Positions 12,559 to 35,217 of a stretch of 37,871 bases of DNA are shown in pieces. Below the pieces are notes generated by a model. The model was not told the origin of the DNA. It saw nothing but the letters and a program-made list of their open reading frames with translations, and searched no databases. The DNA lies in the IMG/VR virus record IMGVR_UViG_3300021124_000013, positions 1-37,871 of that record; one strand, 5' to 3'. The position numbers were made by a program, and so were the translations under genes. This stretch comes from a virus (taxonomy: Duplodnaviria > Caudoviricetes). Position 1 is the stretch's first letter. Every line of letters starts with the position of its first letter.

Positions 12559-12600
12559 TCTCTCCTTACTAAGTTAAGAGTCAGCCGATCTGGCAAACTC

Positions 12601-12637
12601 AACAAACGGAAAGGCTGACTGCCGAAGCAGCCAGCCA
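12601..12637 (-). terminator. Intrinsic terminator-like hairpin after the SSB-like gene
   Basis: - strand GGCUGGCUGC-UUCG-GCAGUCAGCC followed by UUUCCGUUUGUU. Confidence 0.7.
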
Positions 12638-12651
12638 ATCCGCTCCGCGGA

Positions 12652-12981
12652 TTAGGCGGTGATGCTTGTGAGCACCAGCGTCTCAGTCCAGATACCTTTA
12701 GCATCGGCTGTGTTCTTAAGCCAACCTGTAATGGTGACTACTGGACGGCTAGACTTCTTAGCCTTCTGCTCCTCTGGCGATAGAGCGGCAAACTCTGCGA
12801 GGGCTGGGATCTCCCGCACTTGCTCTGCAATATCGAAGGTACGGAACGCCTTTGAGGTGGTGTAAGCACCGTGCTCGCTGCGATCTACGATGAAGCCAGT
12901 AGCGTACAGATTGCCGTTCTTAGCGGTAGCGATCTTGAGGCTGCTTACTTCCGCGTTAGTGAAGACGATTGAGTGTGACAT
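12652..12981 (-). CDS. OB-fold single-stranded DNA-binding-like protein (first early gene)
   Basis: SD AGAAGGAGAG; beta pattern 'TAKNGNLYATGFIV', 'FRTF', 'VTITGWLK', 'W..TLVLTSI' resembles an SSB/PriB OB fold; no acidic tail. Confidence 0.7.
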   Translation of the reverse strand: MSHSIVFTNAEVSSLKIATAKNGNLYATGFIVDRSEHGAYTTSKAFRTFDIAEQVREIPALAEFAALSPEEQKAKKSSRPVVTITGWLKNTADAKGIWTETLVLTSITA

Positions 12982-12986
12982 GTTTC

Positions 12987-13219
12987 TCTCCTTCTGTTTT
13001 GCCTCCCCGTTTTTGGGGTGGTCTGTGACCGACGCTTTGGCAGGGCAGACACAGGCTGTCACCCGAGGGCTCGTCGCCTTTAGCGACGTAAGCGCCCGAG
13101 GGCTAGAGGTCGCGGCGATCTAGGCAGCTCCGCTGCCTGCCGCGCACGATTAGACCTTGACAGCCTGTTAGGCTCTGCCACGGTCTCTCAGACCACCCTT
13201 TGGGGTGGCAGGAAGGAGA
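12987..13219 (+). promoter_or_regulatory. Putative single-strand (Frpo/sso-like) hairpin promoter with Y-shaped head
   Basis: Long stem with TTGACA 13157-13162 at the top of the paired arm and TG-C-CACGGT 13176-13184 facing a 6-nt bulge (13032-13037); two sub-hairpins at the apex. Confidence 0.6.
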
Positions 13220-13742
13220 ATGGCACACTGTCTTCACTGGAAGTAGCCTCTGCTACCGCTGGCAATCTGCTACTGGATACGTCGTGCAGCGGGTGCTTCA
13301 CGCCTCAGTTCCGTGCCATTGCAGAGCGGGGAGATACCCCGTCGCTCGCCGCTGACAGAGGACAGAAGCAGTCCAGTATCAGCATGGTTGGCACAGCCGT
13401 AAAGGTTCAGGACTGGCTGGTGCCACAGCCACCGTAGGTGGCAGGCAGTCAGCCATCCGAACGTTTGCCAGTCGGCTCGTACGAAAATAATGAATCTGAC
13501 TTGGCCCCAGTCGGAACATAGTGGAGACTGTGGGACAGCAGAGACAGCCGTCCATACCAGCCAACCTGTCTGCCAGCGTCTGACCCGGGTGGTTATTAAC
13601 TGGGCTTCCGTTCATAGACGTATCTCTGCCTAAATATTTCTGGTGTCATAGTGACACCTGTACCAGAATGTCCCAGTTTGTCCTATTTTGGAAAACACAG
13701 TAGCAAAGGAAACACAAAATTGTTTCCATCAAAACGTTCGTT

Positions 13743-13771
13743 TTGACTGTTTGAACGGATTAATACAGTAT
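13743..13771 (+). promoter_or_regulatory. Candidate promoter of the terminase/late operon
   Basis: TTGACT-17 nt-CAGTAT (or TACAGT at 15 nt), overlapping the palindrome TCAAAACGttCGTTTTGA. Confidence 0.4.
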
Positions 13772-13867
13772 AGGAAGTAAAGTTATTCGCAGGCTCTTAT
13801 ATAGCCTGCTCATACTGTTACAGACAGTAACTTATAGACGGACGGTTGTAGACGGGAAAGGTCTGTC

Positions 13868-15757
13868 ATGACATTCAAAGCAGGAGAAGAACACTTTAAA
13901 GTCAAGGCGCTAGCCGAGGCTAAAGCCAAAGTTTTGTCCATGGTCGAGGCGGGAGCAACAACCCACCAAGCCATGGTAGCAATCGGTAAGAAGCCTGATA
14001 CAGTCAGACAGTGGCTACTGCGTGACTCGGACTTTGCTACAGCGTTAGCGGAGGCAAAGGATCGAGGTGAGACAAACTCCTTGTCGAGCATCGGTAAGGA
14101 CAAGTCTGAACTATCATTCTCAGAATTCTCTAAGATGTTTCTTGACCAGTCAGTATTCCCACACCATCAGGACTGGGTAGACTTACTGGAGTCGAGAGAG
14201 CCTTCATGGCTGCATCCTTCTATTATCTACGAGCCAGCCGAACGACACAGGCTCCTCATCAATGTTCCGCCGGAACACGCGAAGTCCACTGTGATCACGG
14301 TGAACTATTCGACCTACCGTATCGCCCTTGATCCTAACGTTCGAATCATCGTAGTTTCGAAGACCTTAGTCAAAGCACGCGAGTTCGTGTATTCAATCAA
14401 GCAGCGTCTTTCGCACCCTCGTTACCTCAAGCTTCAAAACGCTTACGGTCCAGAGGGGGGCTGGAAAGAGGACGCAGACACTTGGAAAACTGACACGGTT
14501 TATCTTGGGGGCGATGCGCGTAACTCTAGCGAAAAAGATCCAACCCTTCAAGCCCTAGGCATGGGTGGTCAGATCTACGGCGCACGTGCAGATCTGATCA
14601 TCCTTGACGACGTTATTACAACTGCCAATGCCCATGAATGGGACAAGCAGATTAACTGGCTACAAAAAGAAGTTATTACCCGTTTGGGTAAGAACGGTAA
14701 ACTTCTCATAGTTGGGACACGGATTGCGGCTAATGACTTCTATAAAGAACTTCGTAATCCAAAACACTGGTCTGGTGGCCGTAGCCCCTTTACTTATATG
14801 GGCATGCCTGCTGTATTGGAATTTGCTCAAGAACCCGCAGACTGGCAGACTCTATGGCCTGAGTCGGATGTCCCGTGGGATGGAGACGAAGACGTCCCAC
14901 CCAATGAAGATGGATTCTACCCAAAGTGGGATGGACCCACTCTCTTCAAGCGTCGTAGCGAGGTTACTCCTAGTACGTGGGCTCTTGTCTACCAACAAGA
15001 AGACATCCAAGAAGATTCAGTCTTCCCCCCAGCCCTGGTATCGGGATCAACAAATGGGGCTCGAAGAGTCGGACCTTTAAAACCTGGCGTAGTGGGACAT
15101 CCCAAATCAGTTGAGGGTTACACCATCATTGGTATGGACCCAGCAATTGCAGGTAAGACAGCATTGGTTGTACTAACGTACAACAAAGTAGACGGCAAGA
15201 TCTATGTCCTTGACTGCTTGAATATGGCGGAGGGTAACTATCAAAAGATCCGAGCGGCTATTGAGGCTTACACAGAAAAATACAAGCCACAAGAAGTCAG
15301 AGTCGAAATCAACGCATTCCAGAAAGCCTTTGAACTTGACGAAGATCTACGTAACTGGCTTGCCGGACGTGGAGTCAGACTTAACTCACACTTCACAGGC
15401 AAGAACAAGTGGGACACTTCATTCGGTGTGGCTTCTATGTCAGCGCTTTTCGGAACAATGAGAGATGGCAACCACCAAGATAACAACCTTATTGAACTTC
15501 CATCATCAGATGGTTCAGAAGGAATCAAAGCATTAGTACAGCAATTAATTACATGGAAGCCAGACACTAAAGGTCCAACAGACTGTGTTATGGCAATGTG
15601 GTTCGCGGTCATTAGAGCCCGCGAGATGATCCAAAAGAATACCCATGTGTCTCCGTACCTAACCAACAGGTGGGCTACTAAGTCACAAATGGAATCACGT
15701 TACTCAATCAATCTCGATGATGCTTTCTCAGAGCAATGGACCGAGACTTACGGATAG
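13868..15757 (+). CDS. terL: Terminase large subunit with N-terminal HTH-like extension
   Basis: PPEHAKST Walker A, GARADLIILDD Walker B, VGTR, YQQ, IGMDPA nuclease, E.NAFQ, DCVMA. Confidence 0.95.
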   Translation: MTFKAGEEHFKVKALAEAKAKVLSMVEAGATTHQAMVAIGKKPDTVRQWLLRDSDFATALAEAKDRGETNSLSSIGKDKSELSFSEFSKMFLDQSVFPHHQDWVDLLESREPSWLHPSIIYEPAERHRLLINVPPEHAKSTVITVNYSTYRIALDPNVRIIVVSKTLVKAREFVYSIKQRLSHPRYLKLQNAYGPEGGWKEDADTWKTDTVYLGGDARNSSEKDPTLQALGMGGQIYGARADLIILDDVITTANAHEWDKQINWLQKEVITRLGKNGKLLIVGTRIAANDFYKELRNPKHWSGGRSPFTYMGMPAVLEFAQEPADWQTLWPESDVPWDGDEDVPPNEDGFYPKWDGPTLFKRRSEVTPSTWALVYQQEDIQEDSVFPPALVSGSTNGARRVGPLKPGVVGHPKSVEGYTIIGMDPAIAGKTALVVLTYNKVDGKIYVLDCLNMAEGNYQKIRAAIEAYTEKYKPQEVRVEINAFQKAFELDEDLRNWLAGRGVRLNSHFTGKNKWDTSFGVASMSALFGTMRDGNHQDNNLIELPSSDGSEGIKALVQQLITWKPDTKGPTDCVMAMWFAVIRAREMIQKNTHVSPYLTNRWATKSQMESRYSINLDDAFSEQWTETYG

Positions 15758-18364: not shown

Positions 18365-18789
18365 TGGCAGGAGATCAAGGCGGATACCGCCAGCCATCTA
18401 ATCCAGCACCAGTATCAGGTCCAGGCGCTCTTTCAAAGCGCACAGACGGTGGTGCCGTTGACGGTATGCAACCTCAAGCACCTAAGTACATGCCTGGACT
18501 AGGCTATGGAAAAGGCGGAGAGAACATGGCTAATCAGCAGGCTGCTCCATTAGCCGGTGCTCCAGTAACTCCACCTGCTCCTACAGTTGTACCTTTATCT
18601 GCCCCTACGCAGCGTCCTAACGAGCCAATTACTGCTGGCATTGACAGAGGTCCAGGACCAGGATCAGAAGCCATACAGGTGCCTAACATGGCTATTTCTC
18701 CATCGCACACTCTTCGCACCATTGCCCAGAATGATCCAACTGGAGACTCTGAACTTCTGTATAGGTCATTACTCAGTAGAGGTTTGTAA
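18364..18789 (+). CDS. Pro/Gly-rich putative virion protein
   Basis: TAATG coupling; PAPVSGPGALSKRTDGG, PTQRPNEPITAG. Confidence 0.8.
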   Translation: MAGDQGGYRQPSNPAPVSGPGALSKRTDGGAVDGMQPQAPKYMPGLGYGKGGENMANQQAAPLAGAPVTPPAPTVVPLSAPTQRPNEPITAGIDRGPGPGSEAIQVPNMAISPSHTLRTIAQNDPTGDSELLYRSLLSRGL

Positions 18790-21700
18790 TGCCAGATATG
18801 ACTCCAATTCCCGGCGTTGCCGTTGGGCCTCGCGCATCTTTGCCTGCCACGCCAGTTACTGGTATTACTGCTCCAACTAATACACTTGCTGGTAATACTT
18901 CAGCACTTAACCTAAGCCCACATGTTATGGACATGTCTCCTTCTCTTTATGCAGCAGCGGCAACTGGTGGTTTAAATGCAAACCAGCAGAATATGGTTAA
19001 TCAGATTGCTGGAACTGTGCAGACTTACAAAGCATTAAATGCTTTGCCAATACAGCAGGCTAAACAAAACTATAAAGCCCTAGGTCAAGAAGCACAAGCA
19101 ATGCTTAAGAGCATGTACGGTGCTCCTGCTTGGACTAATACAGATAACTGGATTACTGGTGCAGTTAAAGGTATTGCTTCGACAACTATTAAAGCAGTAG
19201 CAAGTCCACTTATTGCGCTTTACCAAGCTGCTGGTATTGAAAGCAAAGTTATTAATGCACCATATTTGTTTGCACGTGAATTAACACAAGGTGAGTCGGC
19301 TCTTAATTTTAATACATACAAAAAAGCATGGAACGGTAACGCTGTCTTTGACAACGGTACGCTTGCTAATCTACAAAAAACTTATGGCAAAGCCAATGCA
19401 TTTATTGCTGAAGGTATCCTTAAGGGTGAGACTCCTGGCCAAATCATTGACTCATACGGCAAGGTTGATGGAGATCTTTATACTGGACTAGCAAACATGC
19501 TAGGCAACACTAAAGAATTTAATTCCATGATGGATGAGTTCCGTGGAGCGCAGGTTAGTCCTGGCCGCGATCTAGCACGTCTTGCTTTTAACGTACCAAT
19601 TACTGATAGTCACTTCTACACTACGGGTAAGTGGAAATATTCTTCAGGTACAGTTGATGCGTTTTACGAAATCTTGCATGATCCTCTTACTTACATTACA
19701 GGTGGCGGAGCAAAAGTAGCAGAAGCATCTACTAAAGGTGCTCAAATGGCAGAAAAGTTAATTGCCGATCCTGCACTTCGTGCATCTAATGCAGAAGAAA
19801 TCTTTAAACCAGGCACTCAGTTGGCTAATACGTGGGACAATACACTTGGACCATTGGTCCAGCGTGCAACAGAAGCAGATAAAGCCAAAGATCCAGTTGC
19901 TAAAGCAGCAGTCATGCGTGACATTGTGCAAAGCGCACCTGAAATTAACAACCCTGACTTCCTTTCTATCCTTGGTAAAGCAAAAGCCTTTGATGCTAAT
20001 GGCATCAAGGAGTTTGCAAAGACTATGCAGGGCGCTCAAGAACTACATATGGGTACCATCGATGGTCCAACTGCACTGCGCATGGGTATTCCTGTAGCAC
20101 GTCGTGAACGTTTCAGCATTAGCGGTGCTAACCGCGTACTTAGTGACTTGTTTAATGGCAAGATTACTGAAGAACAAGTAGACAATGCACTTAAGAATGG
20201 TCATAAAGGGCTAGAAGAAATTGGTCGTGCACTAGATCCAGTAACTGGATTGCCAACTACTGAGTATGACCGTGCAAGACTTGATTCTTTCCAGGGTCAA
20301 ATGACCCTTGGTCGCCGTATTAGCCGTATGGCACAGACGCATCCAGGGCATGAAGTTATTAATGTTATGGATGAGAATGTTAAAAGCACTCTTTCTGTGT
20401 TTAATAGGTACTTGCGTCTTGCTGGATACCCTAAATACGCTGCAGATATTACAACTGCTGCTTTTGAGTACTCTAATCCTACAGATCGTGTAACAGTTCT
20501 TCGTGGATTATACAGTCAGATCATGAACTTAATGGGCGTACCAGAAGAAAGCCGTGCTGCTGTACTTAGTGCTAAGTTTGCAGACAGTGCTACCTTTGCA
20601 AACCCTAAAGATCTTTATATTAACCCTGAACATCTATCTGAGTGGAAGCAAGTAGACCCACTTGTGCATGATCCGCTTAAAGACGGAACAGATATGTACA
20701 AGGTTACTACTAATGGTCCGCTTCATGCATACCAGGGTAAGCCACATATTGGTGGATTGGACTTTAACGGTCCAGAACTAGCACCATATGGTTTTAATTT
20801 TGCTAAAACAAAGCCTGCTTATCTTATTAACCACGTACTAGGCAACGCTACACGTTCTGCCTTTGCTCGTAAGATAACTAATCTATGGGCAACAGGATCT
20901 ATCTTCCCACGTATGGGTACTCGCGGTACAGTAGAGCAGGGTATCTTCCATTTGCTTACTGCACCGGTACAGAACATTACTGGATGGGCTAGAGGTCGCG
21001 CACTTAATCGTTTAGGTATTGCCCTTACAGGCAACAATGAACAGATGCCTATTATCACACGTGGACTTAAGAGTATGTTTGGCATTAACCCTGCTAAATG
21101 GATACCTGAGAAAAGCGTTTATGATCAGATGGATAAAAAAATTGTCCAAGGTCATCTCGATCGTGGCATAGTCAATGGTCAAGAAGTTTGGCAAGCTGCT
21201 CAGCATGCAGATCTTATCCATGCTCTTGCTGCAAAGATTGATCGTTATTCAGGTGGAGATCCTGTTAAAGCACAGATCTTAGAGAAGTTCTTAAAGTACC
21301 CTACAGGTATTCGTTCTGCTGAAGTTAACTCAGTTATTGCTAAGAGTGCCATGGCACAGGGCATTATGGGTGGGGAACTAGATCAGTCAGTACTCACTGG
21401 TAATCAAATCCAGCGTATGCTTAAATCAGTAGGATACAAAGCAACAGGTCGTTTAAAAAATGTAGATCCTGCGCAGATCGCCAATAATCTTGGCGAAGAC
21501 GGTCTAGCAGATTCACACTTCCGTGTATGGGCTCCTATGTTTAAGAGTTTTAATAAACTAGATGGCTTCCATTTCGGTGAGAACTTTATTAAAAACAATG
21601 CTTTAAAGACTGGTGCAGACTTTGCTGCTGCACGTGATGCAATCCTCAAGCGCTTTGGTATGAATCCTGAGACACTTGAGATTGTAAAACCAGCAGAGTT

Positions 21701-24008
21701 TAAGAAGTACAAGCAGTTCTCTATGCAGACTGCACGTGATGTGAGCGATAAAGGATTAACAGAAGCACAAAGCGTACTTAATCGGGTGCAGATTGCACTA
21801 CAGGATATGTATACCACCTTTCATGGTGATCCAATTAAGTACAATGATAAGTTAGTCAAAGCAGTTCAGGACATTGCTAGTGCTCCTGGTGGCTCTATTG
21901 CCAAGGGATTGGATGCTATTGATCACAATGCATTCCGTGAACTAACACGTGACTTCCGTCCAACTGGTGAGTTTAAGTCTGACCTAGAACCTTTGCATGA
22001 TTCCTTGTGGAATAAAAGCAAGGAAGAAGTAGGCGGAGAAATCATGAACGCTATCAAACGTTTTGGTGATGGCGGTCTACAAGGCAAAGCACTTGGCATG
22101 ATGGACGCTCAGATTAACTATATGTTTAATCAACCTGCTCTTAAGATAGCAGCAATGACATTAAACGAAAAGTACCTTCCTCTTGAGAAAGAGATGTACA
22201 ATAAGTTAATTGAAGAAGGCTATGCCAAAGAGACTGCAAAGGAAATTTCTGAACGCCACTTTGTAGAAGTGGCTGAGAAGAATGCAGCGCAGCAAGTACT
22301 TAAGTTTGTAGATAGCGCAGCAAAGCAATCTAACTTAGCCTTTGCTCTCAAGACCTCTGGTCGATTCTACCGTGCTCAAGAGCAGTTTCAACGCCGTATT
22401 ATGCGTCTTAAAGACTACCTACCACGTGCTTTGTATCGTACTCGCCTAGCACATCTAGGTATAGATAATGCTGGATTCATTCATAAAGATCAGAATGGAA
22501 ACCCATACATCTCAGTACCGGGTGATGCAGCAATGTTTAATGCTATCAACGGCACATTAAACTTCTTTTTAAACCGTCCTGATACTGCAGTTAGTACACC
22601 TTTGTTTGCTAACTTCAATATGAACTTAATTCAATCAAGCCCATCTCTTGGACCTGATGCAGGTGTACCTGCATTCTCTGGTCCATTAATGTCTGTTCCT
22701 ATTTTAGGGCTTAAGATGCTATTGAATAAACTTCCTTGGGGCTTTGGAAAAGACGCAGCGACTAGTATTGATAGCGTAATGCTTGGTTCTAAAAATGCCA
22801 ATTTAACTGCAAGCAAACTAGAACCTGTCTTTGTGCAGCGTATGATTGAGCTTCTGCCTAAAGATGAGCAGGATCATCAGTATGCATCTGCTGCAATGAT
22901 GGCTATATCTTTTAATGCACTACATGGGTATGGGGATCTTACCCCTTCCAGTACTGCAGGCATGAGTACAGACGAATACAAGTCTAAGGCTCAGACTTAT
23001 TTAGACAACCTGCATGTTACTGTTAATAACGTTATAGGACTTCGTGCTCTTTTGGGAATGATTTCACCTATTGCACCTACATTGGCAGAGGGTAAAGACG
23101 TACCTAATGTCTTTAAAAATGTAGGTATTAATAACTTTAGCGCAGCATTTAATGACATCTTACAGGGCGTTCTGCGTAATGATAAAGGTCTATCAGACCC
23201 ATATGAAACTGCACTAGGTATCTTTACTGAAAAGAATCCAGGTATGTCTGTTTTTGCTATAGGCAAAAATGACAAGCAGACTAAGTTGTTGCAGTCTTAT
23301 ACACAAAATACCCAGTCATGGATGCTTAATAACTCTAAGTGGGTTAACAATAGTGATCCAGGTATAGCATCAGCAGCCATGATTTTTGCTCCTGATATGG
23401 GCAAGTATGATCCTAATACTTATACTTGGATGCAGTCAACAGGGCTGATTACACAAAAGCCATTGGCTAAATACTTACAAGATGTTATGACTGCACAGGA
23501 TGTAGCAGCATATTGGAATGCTAAGAACCGCGAAACTAATGCTCTTAGAATACAAGGCACAGATAGAGCAGGGGTTATTGCTGATGCTCAGGCAGAACAG
23601 CAATCTATTCTTACTGCTAACCCAGTAGTAGCACTTACTGTTGGTGATGCTAAGACTCAACTAGCCAAGTATCAAAATGCGTTTGCTGGACTGGGTGCTT
23701 TGCTATCACGAAAAGACTTTCCTATTCCAGATGCAATGCGCAAGAAGATGCAAGTTGTGTACAACTATGCATCAAATGCTATACAAAGCATGACGGTTGA
23801 TACAACTGCTAATGGATTTATTAACGCATCTGTTGATAAAGAAAAGATGAAGCAGGATGCTATTGATCAAATATCAAGCATTGGTGGAGCCACAAAGCCT
23901 GGCGATGCACCAACAGATCCACAGGTAGCAGAAGCATTAAAGTCAATCATTGTTCCATTGCTCGATAACTTGTCAAAAACTACAGTGAAAGCGGGGTTAA
24001 CTAAGTAA
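18789..24008 (+). CDS. 1739-aa putative internal virion / DNA ejection protein
   Basis: Very large, mostly helical-looking ORF in the structural operon; no catalytic motif recognised; product inferred from size and position. Confidence 0.6.
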   Translation: MPDMTPIPGVAVGPRASLPATPVTGITAPTNTLAGNTSALNLSPHVMDMSPSLYAAAATGGLNANQQNMVNQIAGTVQTYKALNALPIQQAKQNYKALGQEAQAMLKSMYGAPAWTNTDNWITGAVKGIASTTIKAVASPLIALYQAAGIESKVINAPYLFARELTQGESALNFNTYKKAWNGNAVFDNGTLANLQKTYGKANAFIAEGILKGETPGQIIDSYGKVDGDLYTGLANMLGNTKEFNSMMDEFRGAQVSPGRDLARLAFNVPITDSHFYTTGKWKYSSGTVDAFYEILHDPLTYITGGGAKVAEASTKGAQMAEKLIADPALRASNAEEIFKPGTQLANTWDNTLGPLVQRATEADKAKDPVAKAAVMRDIVQSAPEINNPDFLSILGKAKAFDANGIKEFAKTMQGAQELHMGTIDGPTALRMGIPVARRERFSISGANRVLSDLFNGKITEEQVDNALKNGHKGLEEIGRALDPVTGLPTTEYDRARLDSFQGQMTLGRRISRMAQTHPGHEVINVMDENVKSTLSVFNRYLRLAGYPKYAADITTAAFEYSNPTDRVTVLRGLYSQIMNLMGVPEESRAAVLSAKFADSATFANPKDLYINPEHLSEWKQVDPLVHDPLKDGTDMYKVTTNGPLHAYQGKPHIGGLDFNGPELAPYGFNFAKTKPAYLINHVLGNATRSAFARKITNLWATGSIFPRMGTRGTVEQGIFHLLTAPVQNITGWARGRALNRLGIALTGNNEQMPIITRGLKSMFGINPAKWIPEKSVYDQMDKKIVQGHLDRGIVNGQEVWQAAQHADLIHALAAKIDRYSGGDPVKAQILEKFLKYPTGIRSAEVNSVIAKSAMAQGIMGGELDQSVLTGNQIQRMLKSVGYKATGRLKNVDPAQIANNLGEDGLADSHFRVWAPMFKSFNKLDGFHFGENFIKNNALKTGADFAAARDAILKRFGMNPETLEIVKPAEFKKYKQFSMQTARDVSDKGLTEAQSVLNRVQIALQDMYTTFHGDPIKYNDKLVKAVQDIASAPGGSIAKGLDAIDHNAFRELTRDFRPTGEFKSDLEPLHDSLWNKSKEEVGGEIMNAIKRFGDGGLQGKALGMMDAQINYMFNQPALKIAAMTLNEKYLPLEKEMYNKLIEEGYAKETAKEISERHFVEVAEKNAAQQVLKFVDSAAKQSNLAFALKTSGRFYRAQEQFQRRIMRLKDYLPRALYRTRLAHLGIDNAGFIHKDQNGNPYISVPGDAAMFNAINGTLNFFLNRPDTAVSTPLFANFNMNLIQSSPSLGPDAGVPAFSGPLMSVPILGLKMLLNKLPWGFGKDAATSIDSVMLGSKNANLTASKLEPVFVQRMIELLPKDEQDHQYASAAMMAISFNALHGYGDLTPSSTAGMSTDEYKSKAQTYLDNLHVTVNNVIGLRALLGMISPIAPTLAEGKDVPNVFKNVGINNFSAAFNDILQGVLRNDKGLSDPYETALGIFTEKNPGMSVFAIGKNDKQTKLLQSYTQNTQSWMLNNSKWVNNSDPGIASAAMIFAPDMGKYDPNTYTWMQSTGLITQKPLAKYLQDVMTAQDVAAYWNAKNRETNALRIQGTDRAGVIADAQAEQQSILTANPVVALTVGDAKTQLAKYQNAFAGLGALLSRKDFPIPDAMRKKMQVVYNYASNAIQSMTVDTTANGFINASVDKEKMKQDAIDQISSIGGATKPGDAPTDPQVAEALKSIIVPLLDNLSKTTVKAGLTK

Positions 24009-34117: not shown

Positions 34118-34875
34118 TGGCAAGTACAGTTTTTCCAGCCGCTAGTAGCGGAGTAACCCAGAAAGTTCAAGAGTTCTTGTCTACTGGTACTTTTACAACC
34201 CCATCTAACTGCACAACTGTTGAGGTATTCCTTGTTGGCGGTGGTGGCGGTGGTGGTGGTGCTAGTAGTGGCGCACCTGGATCACAGGGTGGTGGTGGTG
34301 GCGGTGGCGGAGTTGTATGGAAAACTATTGCTGTAACTGCTGGTCAAGCATACACAGTAACTGTTGGAGCCGCTGGAACCGCTGGTGCTTCTGCTGGCGG
34401 TTCAGGCGGAACTGGTGGAGACACAACTTTTGGTTCACTTGCTACTGCTTCAGGAGGAGGCTACGGAGGTGGCGGAACTGGTGGCGCTGCTGGCGGCAAT
34501 GGTGGTTCTGGTGGTGGTGGAGGATATTCTGGTACTGGTGGCGGTGCTGGTTCGGGTGGCGGTGCTGGAGGAAATGCTGTTGCTTATGCAGGTTCAACCA
34601 GCAGTGGAGGTACAGCAGGTGTCGGCTCGCAAGGAGGAAGCGGGTCTGTATATTCATCTACACCAGGCGGACCAGGGATTAACGGATTTGGTGGTGGCGG
34701 TGGTGGTGGTGCTAGTAGCATGCCTAGCGGAGGCGCTGGTGGAGGAAAAGGTGCATCGTCTACACCAACAGCAGGAGCAACCAACACAGGTGGCGGAGGC
34801 GGTGGCGCTTACAGCGCAACTGCTGCAGGAGCCGCTGGTGGTTCTGGCTATGCTCGCGTTACCTATTGGTCATAA
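34117..34875 (+). CDS. Glycine-rich tail fibre / receptor-binding protein
   Basis: F.S.GTFT.P, VFLVGGGGGG, YTVTVGA.G, NTGGGGGG, GGSG...V.Y. Confidence 0.85.
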   Translation: MASTVFPAASSGVTQKVQEFLSTGTFTTPSNCTTVEVFLVGGGGGGGGASSGAPGSQGGGGGGGGVVWKTIAVTAGQAYTVTVGAAGTAGASAGGSGGTGGDTTFGSLATASGGGYGGGGTGGAAGGNGGSGGGGGYSGTGGGAGSGGGAGGNAVAYAGSTSSGGTAGVGSQGGSGSVYSSTPGGPGINGFGGGGGGGASSMPSGGAGGGKGASSTPTAGATNTGGGGGGAYSATAAGAAGGSGYARVTYWS

Positions 34876-34884
34876 GGAGAAAAC

Positions 34885-35217
34885 ATGTCACATTTAGAAG
34901 AACACGAACACGCGTTTATTAAAAATAATGTAGTAGAACACATCTTTGTTTTTGATGAGTCTGCACACAGTTCTGGTTTATTAGAAACAGTAAAGACAGA
35001 ACAGGGCTGCGACACTGTTATATGCCTATGCAACCATGGCTCAGTGCCTGCTCGTTGGTCTACGTGGGATGGCACAACATTTACAGATCCAACACTTGAC
35101 TATCTTTACAGCATTGGTGTTACTGTAGAAAACCAAGCAATGCATGATGAGCGTTTAGCAAAAATAGAAGCAGCATTACAGGCTGCTCTTGCTGCAGAAG
35201 CAACACCAACAGCATAA
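34885..35217 (+). CDS. Putative tail fibre assembly/chaperone protein
   Basis: SD AAGGAG; AFIKNNVV..I.V, W.TWDGTTF..P; follows the Gly-rich gene. Confidence 0.6.
   Translation: MSHLEEHEHAFIKNNVVEHIFVFDESAHSSGLLETVKTEQGCDTVICLCNHGSVPARWSTWDGTTFTDPTLDYLYSIGVTVENQAMHDERLAKIEAALQAALAAEATPTA

What the first reader, a model, noticed from the sequence alone, without database searches (positions are those of the whole stretch)
12987..13219. Frpo/sso-like single-strand promoter at the apex of the fold-back
Seen: stems ACAGGCTGTCA 13051 / TGACAGCCTGT 13158, TGGCAGGGC 13038 / GCTCTGCCA 13172, GACCG 13027 / CGGTC 13181 and GGGTGGTCTG 13016 / CAGACCACCC 13189. They are capped by two sub-hairpins: CGTCGC/GCGACG flanked by a CCCGAGGGCT direct repeat at 13062 and 13095, and GCGGC..AGGCAGC/GCTGCCT..GCCGC. 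A consensus TTGACA (13157) starts the right arm, and 16 nt later TG-C-CACGGT faces a 6-nt bulge. In folded + ssDNA this would point RNAP down the left arm into the RBS and gene; in dsDNA the same box points away from the gene. Established: F-plasmid Frpo and rolling-circle ssoA elements are ssDNA hairpins recognised by host RNAP, and F ssb lies in the Frpo-driven leading region. TAGCGA at 13081 matches the short ssoA CS-6 motif, which may be chance.
Basis: partly seen in the sequence, partly recalled or inferred. Interest (0 to 1): 0.85.

Follow-up and report, generated by a model that had tools for sequence, protein, structure and literature searches.

The report
Whole-gene fold-back with single-strand promoter

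Summary
The hairpin is real (z -8.8) and every quoted coordinate is right, but it is only the tip of a 0.9-kb fold-back (12583-13477, z -20). The distal arm is a non-coding, gapped mirror of the whole SSB-fold gene and its terminator: helices of at most 12-14 bp, broken here by 4-6-nt template-side bulges. All 40 of 40 related loci with enough flank have it. The arm tracks its own ORF across proteins 26-79% identical. Among terminase relatives, 16 of 16 with the gene have the rod and 0 of 36 without it do. Mismatches favour folding of the gene's template strand (G-containing 99, C-containing 31). A TTG-16/18-TGn-NANNNT promoter sits on the distal arm in 15 of 16 lineages, a short-apex group keeps only an extended -10, and the mirror copy is broken at -10. 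That is Frpo geometry, without Frpo sequence or plasmid context. CS-6/ssoA is chance. By homology with Streptomyces BF phage termini, the rod lies about 150 bp inside the genome's right end. Best reading: an ssDNA-activated transcription unit that makes an SSB when that end is resected or unwound. No activity was tested. The source of ssDNA is inferred.

The parts
12583..13477 (+). Whole fold-back (rod) of the + strand, which is the template strand of the SSB-like gene
   Evidence: MFE -292.7 kcal/mol as DNA for 12575-13500, z -20.3; arm alignment and ends; only such element in the window (score 173, next unrelated 36)
12613..12636 (-). Intrinsic terminator of the SSB-like gene, inside the proximal arm
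   Evidence: Terminator scan; a terminator-like hairpin follows the ORF in the relatives listed
12652..12981 (-). 109-aa SSB/PriB-fold protein (no acidic tail), first gene of the early block; its template strand is the proximal arm
   Evidence: AF2 model pLDDT 91; top matches are bacterial SSBs, Z 11.2, rmsd 2.4, 91 aligned; no PHROG hit
12986..12995 (-). Ribosome-binding site of the SSB-like gene; its complement is paired with 13210-13219 in the rod
   Evidence: Sequence and fold
13019..13024 (-). Predicted transcription start if RNA polymerase reads the folded strand (about 40-nt leader)
   Evidence: Inferred from the pairing of 13184 with 13028; not mapped
13032..13037 (+). 6-nt template-side bulge that interrupts the -10 duplex
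   Evidence: a bulge or mismatch within the -10 in the 16 lineages shown
13062..13156 (+). Apex with two sub-hairpins; sequence, length and branching vary freely among relatives; contains the chance CS-6 match at 13081
13157..13162 (+). -35 box TTGACA on the distal (non-template) arm
   Evidence: TTG at this place in 15 of 16 lineages
13176..13184 (+). Extended -10 (TG-n-CACGGT), A at -11 and T at -7
   Evidence: conserved in 16 of 16 lineages; sole promoter element in 10 of 10 short-apex loci, one of them TGCTATAAT
13220..13434 (+). Non-coding gapped mirror of the SSB-like ORF (about 60% of ORF bases paired, 110 ORF bases looped out)
   Evidence: equal pairing at all three codon positions
13435..13477 (+). 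Mirror of the terminator and of the 30 nt beyond it; end of the rod
13582..13622 (+). GACCC-N-TTAA motif (13582-13599) and inferred right end of the linear genome near 13622
   Evidence: Same motif ends 23 nt inside the right end of the terminal repeat in 4 of 4 Streptomyces BF phages and is found in 42 of 42 freshwater loci; end inferred by homology, not mapped

Best explanation
The element is a conserved 0.9-kb fold-back in which a non-coding gapped mirror pairs with the template strand of a whole SSB-fold gene, and it likely works as a transcription unit that is active only when that strand is single-stranded. Shown by sequence comparison: the rod, its co-evolution with the ORF, the bias for the template strand, the promoter boxes on the distal arm and the broken mirror -10. 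Inferred steps: (1) the + strand becomes single-stranded from the nearby right genome end, where it is the 3' strand, by 5'-3' resection or unwinding after entry (host AdnAB type) or during end processing and lagging-strand synthesis; (2) it folds; host RNA polymerase with the housekeeping sigma binds the -35 duplex and the pre-opened -10 and starts near 13021; (3) it transcribes down the proximal arm, with the distal arm standing in for the non-template strand and shielding the template, and stops at 12613-12636; the short mRNA has a free ribosome-binding site; (4) the SSB coats ssDNA, and it or fill-in synthesis opens the short helices, which switches the unit off. In duplex DNA the gene has no matching promoter, and any read-through RNA from further right would bury the ribosome-binding site and ORF.
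For: Rod in 40 of 40 loci, z 22-113, and in 19 of 19 further loci with enough flank. Arm scores 71-254 against its own ORF, 25-94 against the best other ORF. 95 of 122 ORF changes in helices are matched in the arm; third-position divergence 70/646 in helices against 67/330 in bulges. RNAalifold on 8 sequences of one lineage: 62 of 276 pairs change on both sides. Rod in 16 of 16 terminase loci with the gene, 0 of 36 without. Isolated mismatches G-containing 99, C-containing 31 on the template strand, same direction in 13 of 16 lineages; G-A (40) and T-T (34) nearly as common as G-T (44), which fits DNA better than RNA (the stability order is recalled). Promoter on the distal arm outscores anything on the sense side of the proximal arm in 16 of 16; score 7 or more in 11 of 16 against 6.5% by chance. 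Related BF phages have ordinary leftward promoters of the same pattern in this interval and no rod. Rod ends 105-201 nt inside the inferred end in 16 of 16. Duplex -1381 against two rods -293 and -269 kcal/mol, so extrusion from relaxed duplex is not expected. Frpo drives ssb in F and is off in dsDNA (passages of PMC9849209, PMC12672017).
Against: No transcription, binding or end-mapping data. No single-stranded stage is shown for these phages, and the genome end is inferred from phages whose terminase is only about 44% identical. The distal-arm boxes are also an intact rightward promoter in duplex DNA, which may be their real output. The -10 is weak in this genome and my promoter score was ad hoc. 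Strand bias is not absolute: all mismatches counted give 485 G-T against 353 A-C, six loci (L017, L022, L045, L123, L125, L126) clearly lean the other way, and the apex z-score is better on the template strand in only 16 of 22. Frpo units on plasmids need no whole-gene arm, so the promoter alone does not explain the rod. Good-scoring sense-strand sites exist further upstream in some loci (for example 8.5 in L034, 8.0 in L102), though not at a shared position. The gene and rod are absent from 36 of 52 close relatives and from the two cultured Planktophila phages, so they are accessory.
Confidence: 0.62

Rival explanations
1. The rod is a DNA end structure and the boxes are an ordinary rightward dsDNA promoter. 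The folded 3' tail would hide ssDNA or prime fill-in synthesis from its own paired 3' end, while the promoter serves the terminal repeat or late genes.
For: Fixed position next to the inferred end; the promoter is intact in duplex DNA and points at the terminal repeat and terminase; short hairpins with a + strand TTGAC also occur in several relatives that lack the gene.
Against: The rod covers exactly promoter, ORF and terminator and occurs only with this gene; a rightward promoter needs no hairpin, no broken mirror -10 and no fixed distance to the SSB start; no sense-side promoter is left for the gene.
Confidence: 0.17
2. The rod forms in RNA. Either a long leftward transcript folds back on itself, silencing SSB translation and masking the terminator until SSB or a helicase opens it, or a + strand rod RNA acts as a polymerase decoy or template.
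For: Both strands also fold well as RNA (apex z about -8.9); the ribosome-binding site and half of the terminator are paired; SSB translational autoregulation is known for T4 gp32 (passage of PMC10690425).
Against: Mismatch bias is against the mRNA-sense strand; no shared promoter for a + strand RNA left of the rod or for a long leftward RNA; G-A and T-T as common as G-T; conserved -35/-10 spacing is a DNA feature; masking a ribosome-binding site needs tens of bases, not the whole ORF.
Confidence: 0.14
3. A decayed inverted duplication kept similar by template switching or gene conversion, without function.
For: Quasi-palindromes are corrected by template switching (recalled); the cassette is accessory.
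Against: Kept in every lineage over 26-79% protein identity; helices capped at 9-14 bp with regular one-sided bulges; strand bias; slower third positions in helices; conserved promoter on one arm only.
Confidence: 0.03
4. An ssoA-type single-strand origin: RNA polymerase makes a replication primer at the hairpin.
For: Frpo-type hairpins can prime DNA synthesis (passage of PMC12672017); the cumulative GC skew has a minimum near 13 kb.
Against: CS-6 at chance level and not conserved; the phage encodes primase and DnaB and no rolling-circle initiator was recognised; a conserved ribosome-binding site, ORF and terminator follow. Priming as a side role of the same transcript is not excluded.
Confidence: 0.04

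Closest known systems
Frpo1/Frpo2 of plasmid F, ssi1-3 of ColIb-P9 and class 2/3 ssDNA promoters of pESBL (passages of PMC9849209, PMC12672017, PMC11541004)
   Same: Long template-strand hairpin that rebuilds -35/-10 for host RNA polymerase in front of an ssb gene; predicted to be silent toward the gene in duplex DNA.
   Different: No sequence match in 72,556 plasmids; dsDNA tailed phage, not a conjugative leading region; pairing covers the whole ORF and terminator, not the promoter alone; actinobacterial extended -10 form.
Phage N4 early promoters read by virion RNA polymerase (passages of PMC4496689)
   Same: Tailed dsDNA phage with a template-strand hairpin promoter linked to SSB; there transcription on ssDNA leaves RNA:DNA hybrids that SSB must displace.
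   Different: N4 uses short hairpins extruded by supercoiling and its own polymerase; here no RNA polymerase was recognised, the boxes are sigma-type, and the structure is 0.9 kb and too costly to extrude.
ssoA single-strand origins of rolling-circle plasmids (CS-6 motif; recalled, PMC4595007 does not mention it)
   Same: ssDNA hairpin thought to be read by host RNA polymerase.
   Different: CS-6 not conserved and at chance frequency; no rolling-circle initiator recognised; element heads a coding unit.
Streptomyces cluster BF podoviruses (Beephvirinae; PMC9753666) and Planktophila phages E7/F5 (PMC10202952)
   Same: Same genome plan (terminase at the left end, leftward early genes at the right end) and the same motif at the terminal-repeat boundary.
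   Different: They have no rod and no such gene; BF phages carry 2-3 ordinary leftward TTGACA promoters in this interval.
Rod-shaped coding RNAs (hepatitis delta virus, obelisks; recalled, not read)
   Same: An ORF paired along its length with a bulged non-coding complement.
   Different: Those are RNA replicons; this is a cassette in a DNA phage genome with a sigma-type promoter at the tip.

Membership tests
Frpo/ssi ssDNA promoters | Long stem-loop predicted on the template strand of the downstream gene | tested here: met
Frpo/ssi ssDNA promoters | -35 and -10 boxes rebuilt in the stem, on the arm distal to the gene | tested here: met
   15 of 16 lineages with both boxes, 16 of 16 with extended -10; short-apex group has -10 only
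Frpo/ssi ssDNA promoters | No equivalent promoter toward the gene in duplex DNA | tested here: met
   Mirror -10 broken and sense-side score lower in 16 of 16; sequence test only
Frpo/ssi ssDNA promoters | Sequence homology to known plasmid classes | tested here: not met
   No blastn match at E 1 in the plasmid collection
Frpo/ssi ssDNA promoters | Location in the leading region of a conjugative element | tested here: not met
   Complete virus record with terminase, portal, capsid, no transfer genes recognised
Frpo/ssi ssDNA promoters | Transcription from folded ssDNA and not from dsDNA | not testable with these tools
   Needs in vitro transcription
ssoA single-strand origin | Conserved CS-6 (TAGCG[T/A]) in a loop | tested here: not met
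   2 of 16 lineages, one of them in a stem; 29 matches against 27.8 expected
ssoA single-strand origin | ss-to-ds conversion activity | not testable with these tools
   Needs a plasmid assay
N4 vRNAP hairpin promoters | Phage-encoded virion RNA polymerase and short extrudable hairpin | tested here: not met
   No RNA polymerase among 43 proteins scanned (the 1739-aa protein has no PHROG hit and was not folded); rod extrusion unfavourable
Bacterial SSB/PriB OB-fold proteins (gene product) | SSB-type OB fold over the whole domain | tested here: met
   Z 11.2, rmsd 2.4, 91 of 109 residues; SSB and PriB rows tied within about 1 Z; Foldseek E 2e-5
Bacterial SSB/PriB OB-fold proteins (gene product) | ssDNA binding | not testable with these tools
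   Fold only
Known structured RNA families (Rfam 15) | Match to a covariance model | tested here: not met
   No hit in 12583-13477 at E up to 5

The most novel reading that the evidence does not exclude
A dsDNA phage carries a complete gene that exists as a working transcription unit only in single-stranded form: a resection sensor at the genome end that folds into a self-made pseudo-duplex (promoter, ORF, terminator), turns host attack on the incoming end into SSB synthesis, and shuts itself off. Similar gene-mirroring rods noted by other agents in marine podoviruses would make this a general, undescribed phage strategy.
Probability: 0.4. Interest if true: 0.95.

Novelty: categorically new. 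Interest (0 to 1): 0.86.

Why it matters
The promoter at the tip is a new variant of the plasmid Frpo kind. The co-evolving whole-gene mirror has no counterpart in the papers I could search, and that is what the novelty rating refers to. If the reading holds, tailed dsDNA phages have a programmed single-stranded stage at a genome end and express a gene from it, which bears on how DTR podoviruses of Actinobacteria survive end resection and start replication. It also gives a compact natural design for an ssDNA-only, self-limiting gene that can be tested with one synthetic strand and a mycobacterial or Streptomyces polymerase.

Tried and rejected
Rfam: no family in the element. Blastn of 12600-13900 and tblastn of the SSB-like protein against annotated phages: no match. 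No homolog in bacterial genomes; none for the distant homolog P0038 in viral contigs, so the most distant proteins (P0028, P0034, P0036, P0038, P0040) were not checked for a rod. Sequencing runs: no RNA holder listed; 8 of the 20 holder runs were laid, all contigs, and show no molecule ends. Contig ends are crowded 97-750 nt upstream of terminase (21 there, after leaving out 3 loci cut inside the gene, against 3 in the matching downstream bins) but are spread out and may reflect the variable module boundary, so I do not use them for the terminus. The idea that this SSB replaces another one failed: a second family that looks OB-fold-like by eye (not folded) is present in 26 of 29 loci, 8 of them with both; the window lacks it. 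A conserved promoter downstream of the terminator or to the left of the rod was not found, so how the remaining early genes are transcribed is open. The CCCGAGGGCT repeat and sub-hairpin sequences are lineage-specific. Whole-genome scans: no rod in Planktophila phage F5 or HTVC011P; a weak mirror in HTVC010P at the early/late junction (63 against shuffle maximum 59, best of 50 positions), a lead only. A DNA pattern from the promoter gave 17 viral loci, 16 beside this gene family and 1 unrelated: no rod with a different cargo gene was found.

Full report
Setting. The window is a complete virus record with WhiB, sigma factor, primase, DnaB, RusA and exonuclease on the - strand and terminase, portal and capsid on the + strand. 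Its terminase is 60% identical to cultured Planktophila phages E7/F5 and about 44% to Streptomyces cluster BF podoviruses (PMC10202952, first 10,000 of 16,658 characters read), so the host is probably a freshwater actinobacterium. The finding lies at the switch between early and late genes. The gene at 12652-12981 (-) is the first early gene, has its own terminator and folds as an SSB/PriB OB domain.

Observation. All coordinates are right and the hairpin is far beyond chance (z -8.8). In this genome alone the promoter and CS-6 matches are not above chance.

The larger structure. The + strand from 13220 to 13477 is a gapped copy, in mRNA polarity, of the ORF, the terminator and 30 nt beyond. 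The strand can therefore fold into one rod, 12583-13477, -293 kcal/mol, z -20. In this genome helices of 6-10 bp alternate with 4-6-nt bulges, nearly all on the template side; other lineages use more 1-2-nt bulges and mismatches. It is the only such element in the window.

Relatives. Searches gave 66 loci with the gene, 48 distinct in their proximal 200 nt; 8 had under 700 nt of flank and were dropped; 40 of 40 had the mirror (z 22-113). A later search added 20 loci; 19 of 19 with enough flank had it. In 16 representatives under 80% identical (26-79%), each arm matches its own ORF (71-254) better than any other (25-94), covers 78-100% of the ORF, and the longest perfect helix is 9-12 bp (up to 14). 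In 13 pairs of close relatives 95 of 122 ORF changes inside helices are matched in the arm, and third positions change half as often in helices as in bulges (70/646 against 67/330); these alignments are fitted to pairing, which can inflate the first count. RNAalifold on 8 sequences of one lineage gave 276 pairs, 62 with changes on both sides. Of 80 terminase loci I used the 52 with at least 1 kb upstream (3 duplicates left out): 16 of 16 with the gene have a rod (117-299), 0 of 36 without (21-49).

Which strand, DNA or RNA. Isolated mismatches read on the template strand are G-T 44, G-A 40, T-T 34, G-G 15 against A-C 14, C-T 14, A-A 10, C-C 3; 13 of 16 lineages lean this way, 2 tie, 1 is opposite. 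With all mismatches counted the bias is weaker (485 against 353) and six loci clearly lean the other way. The template strand has the lower apex energy in 22 of 22 loci but the better z-score in 16 of 22. So the mRNA-sense strand is the less likely folder. G-A and T-T rivalling G-T fits DNA better than RNA (stability order recalled, not from a call).

Promoter. On the distal arm, 15 of 16 representatives have TTG-NNN, 16-18 nt, TG-n, then NANNNT; the sixteenth keeps TG-n-TAGGAT without TTG. Spacer sequence varies while pairing is kept. The mirror copy on the gene's own strand lacks -11A or -7T or is split by a 3-6-nt insertion, so the folded promoter has a bulge or mismatch in the -10. A short-apex group has lost the -35 and carries TG-n-TAGGCT or TG-C-TATAAT 60-66 nt from the start codon (10 of 10 loci, about five distinct sequences). 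With an ad hoc score the distal-arm site beats the best sense-side site of the proximal arm in 16 of 16. BF phages have promoters of the same pattern in this interval, but pointing left in plain duplex DNA. This is the geometry described for Frpo (passages of PMC9849209, PMC12672017, PMC11541004 and 10.64898/2026.01.09.698686; Masai and Arai 1997 not read).

Where ssDNA could come from. BF phages have 253-276-bp direct terminal repeats (PMC9753666, first part read). In 4 of 4 the right end lies 23 nt after an ACCC-N-TTAA motif. The same loose motif, followed by a similar block, is present in 42 of 42 freshwater loci 252-443 nt before terminase, in the window at 13582-13599. By homology the right end is near 13622, and the rod ends 105-201 nt inside it in 16 of 16 lineages. 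The folding strand has its 3' end there, so it is the strand left by 5'-3' resection and the lagging-strand template. AdnAB-type unwinding or resection yields such a 3' strand in mycobacteria (abstract of PMC5314763); I did not check the host for AdnAB. Extrusion from relaxed duplex is not expected (-1381 against -562 kcal/mol). All of this paragraph is inference from homology.

Why a whole-gene arm. Inferred: it shields the template from nucleases and SSB/RecA coating and supplies a stand-in non-template strand, since transcription on naked ssDNA leaves RNA:DNA hybrids in the N4 system (passages of PMC4496689). Short helices would keep the duplex genome stable and the rod easy to open. None of this is tested, and the rivals (end structure with a rightward promoter, RNA rod) remain open.

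Known or new. It works like Frpo but is not a member (no homology, no conjugative context). It is not ssoA. Ten literature searches (mostly listings) showed no sigma-type ssDNA promoter in a tailed dsDNA phage and no gene-mirroring rod. The library lacks most subscription papers, and I did not read the supplements of the phage structured-RNA survey PMC10690425 (passages only), which could list part of the apex as an anonymous motif. Other agents of this scan noted Frpo-like hairpins in Bacteroidota phages and gene-mirroring hairpins in marine podoviruses; these are unchecked notes, and my one test on HTVC010P gave only a weak signal.

Verdict. Observation confirmed; interpretation partly supported; the real object is the whole-gene rod. 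Confidence in an ssDNA-activated SSB unit 0.62; in the full end-resection sensor 0.4; interest 0.86.

Noticed in passing
L025, L028, L029, L037, L040, L054, L057, L081, about 600-1000 nt upstream of terminase: Relatives without the SSB-like gene often have a shorter branched hairpin at the same place, with a + strand TTGAC paired to its mirror in front of the first early gene; the -10 spacing is less regular. Possibly promoter-only versions of the same device.
   Followed up: partly
window 13582-13660 and 42 related loci: Conserved GACCC-N-TTAA, 23 nt, then an A/T-rich block ending in GTGAC/GTTAC, shared with the terminal-repeat boundary of Streptomyces BF phages; lets the physical ends of these uncultured phages be predicted.
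   Followed up: partly
apex stems of L003, L008, L011, L018, L026, L062, L075, L089 and others: A recurring symmetric internal loop in the promoter spacer, GTT facing GTT (G-T, T-T, T-G on the template strand), kept in two distant lineages but absent from the window.
   Followed up: no
L029, L032, L040, L057 and others, second or third early gene: A second family of 103-118-aa proteins that look OB-fold-like by eye, in 26 of 29 loci; absent from the window. Not folded.
   Followed up: partly
L005, L021, L030, L039, L050, L053, L069, L073: In relatives without the cassette the first early slot often holds proteins resembling DUF4326 or YspA/SLOG families (recognised from memory, not scanned), suggesting an exchangeable end-proximal anti-defence slot.
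   Followed up: no
window 13731-13824: Non-coding blocks upstream of terminase that are nearly identical between otherwise divergent phages; candidate late promoter or packaging signal.
   Followed up: no
L177 (HTVC010P) 34472-35019, across the record end: Weak mirror of the start of the first early gene at the early/late junction.
   Followed up: partly
whole window: No DNA polymerase was recognised among the 43 proteins scanned although primase, helicase and resolvase are present; the 1739-aa protein at 18789-24008 has no PHROG match.
   Followed up: no
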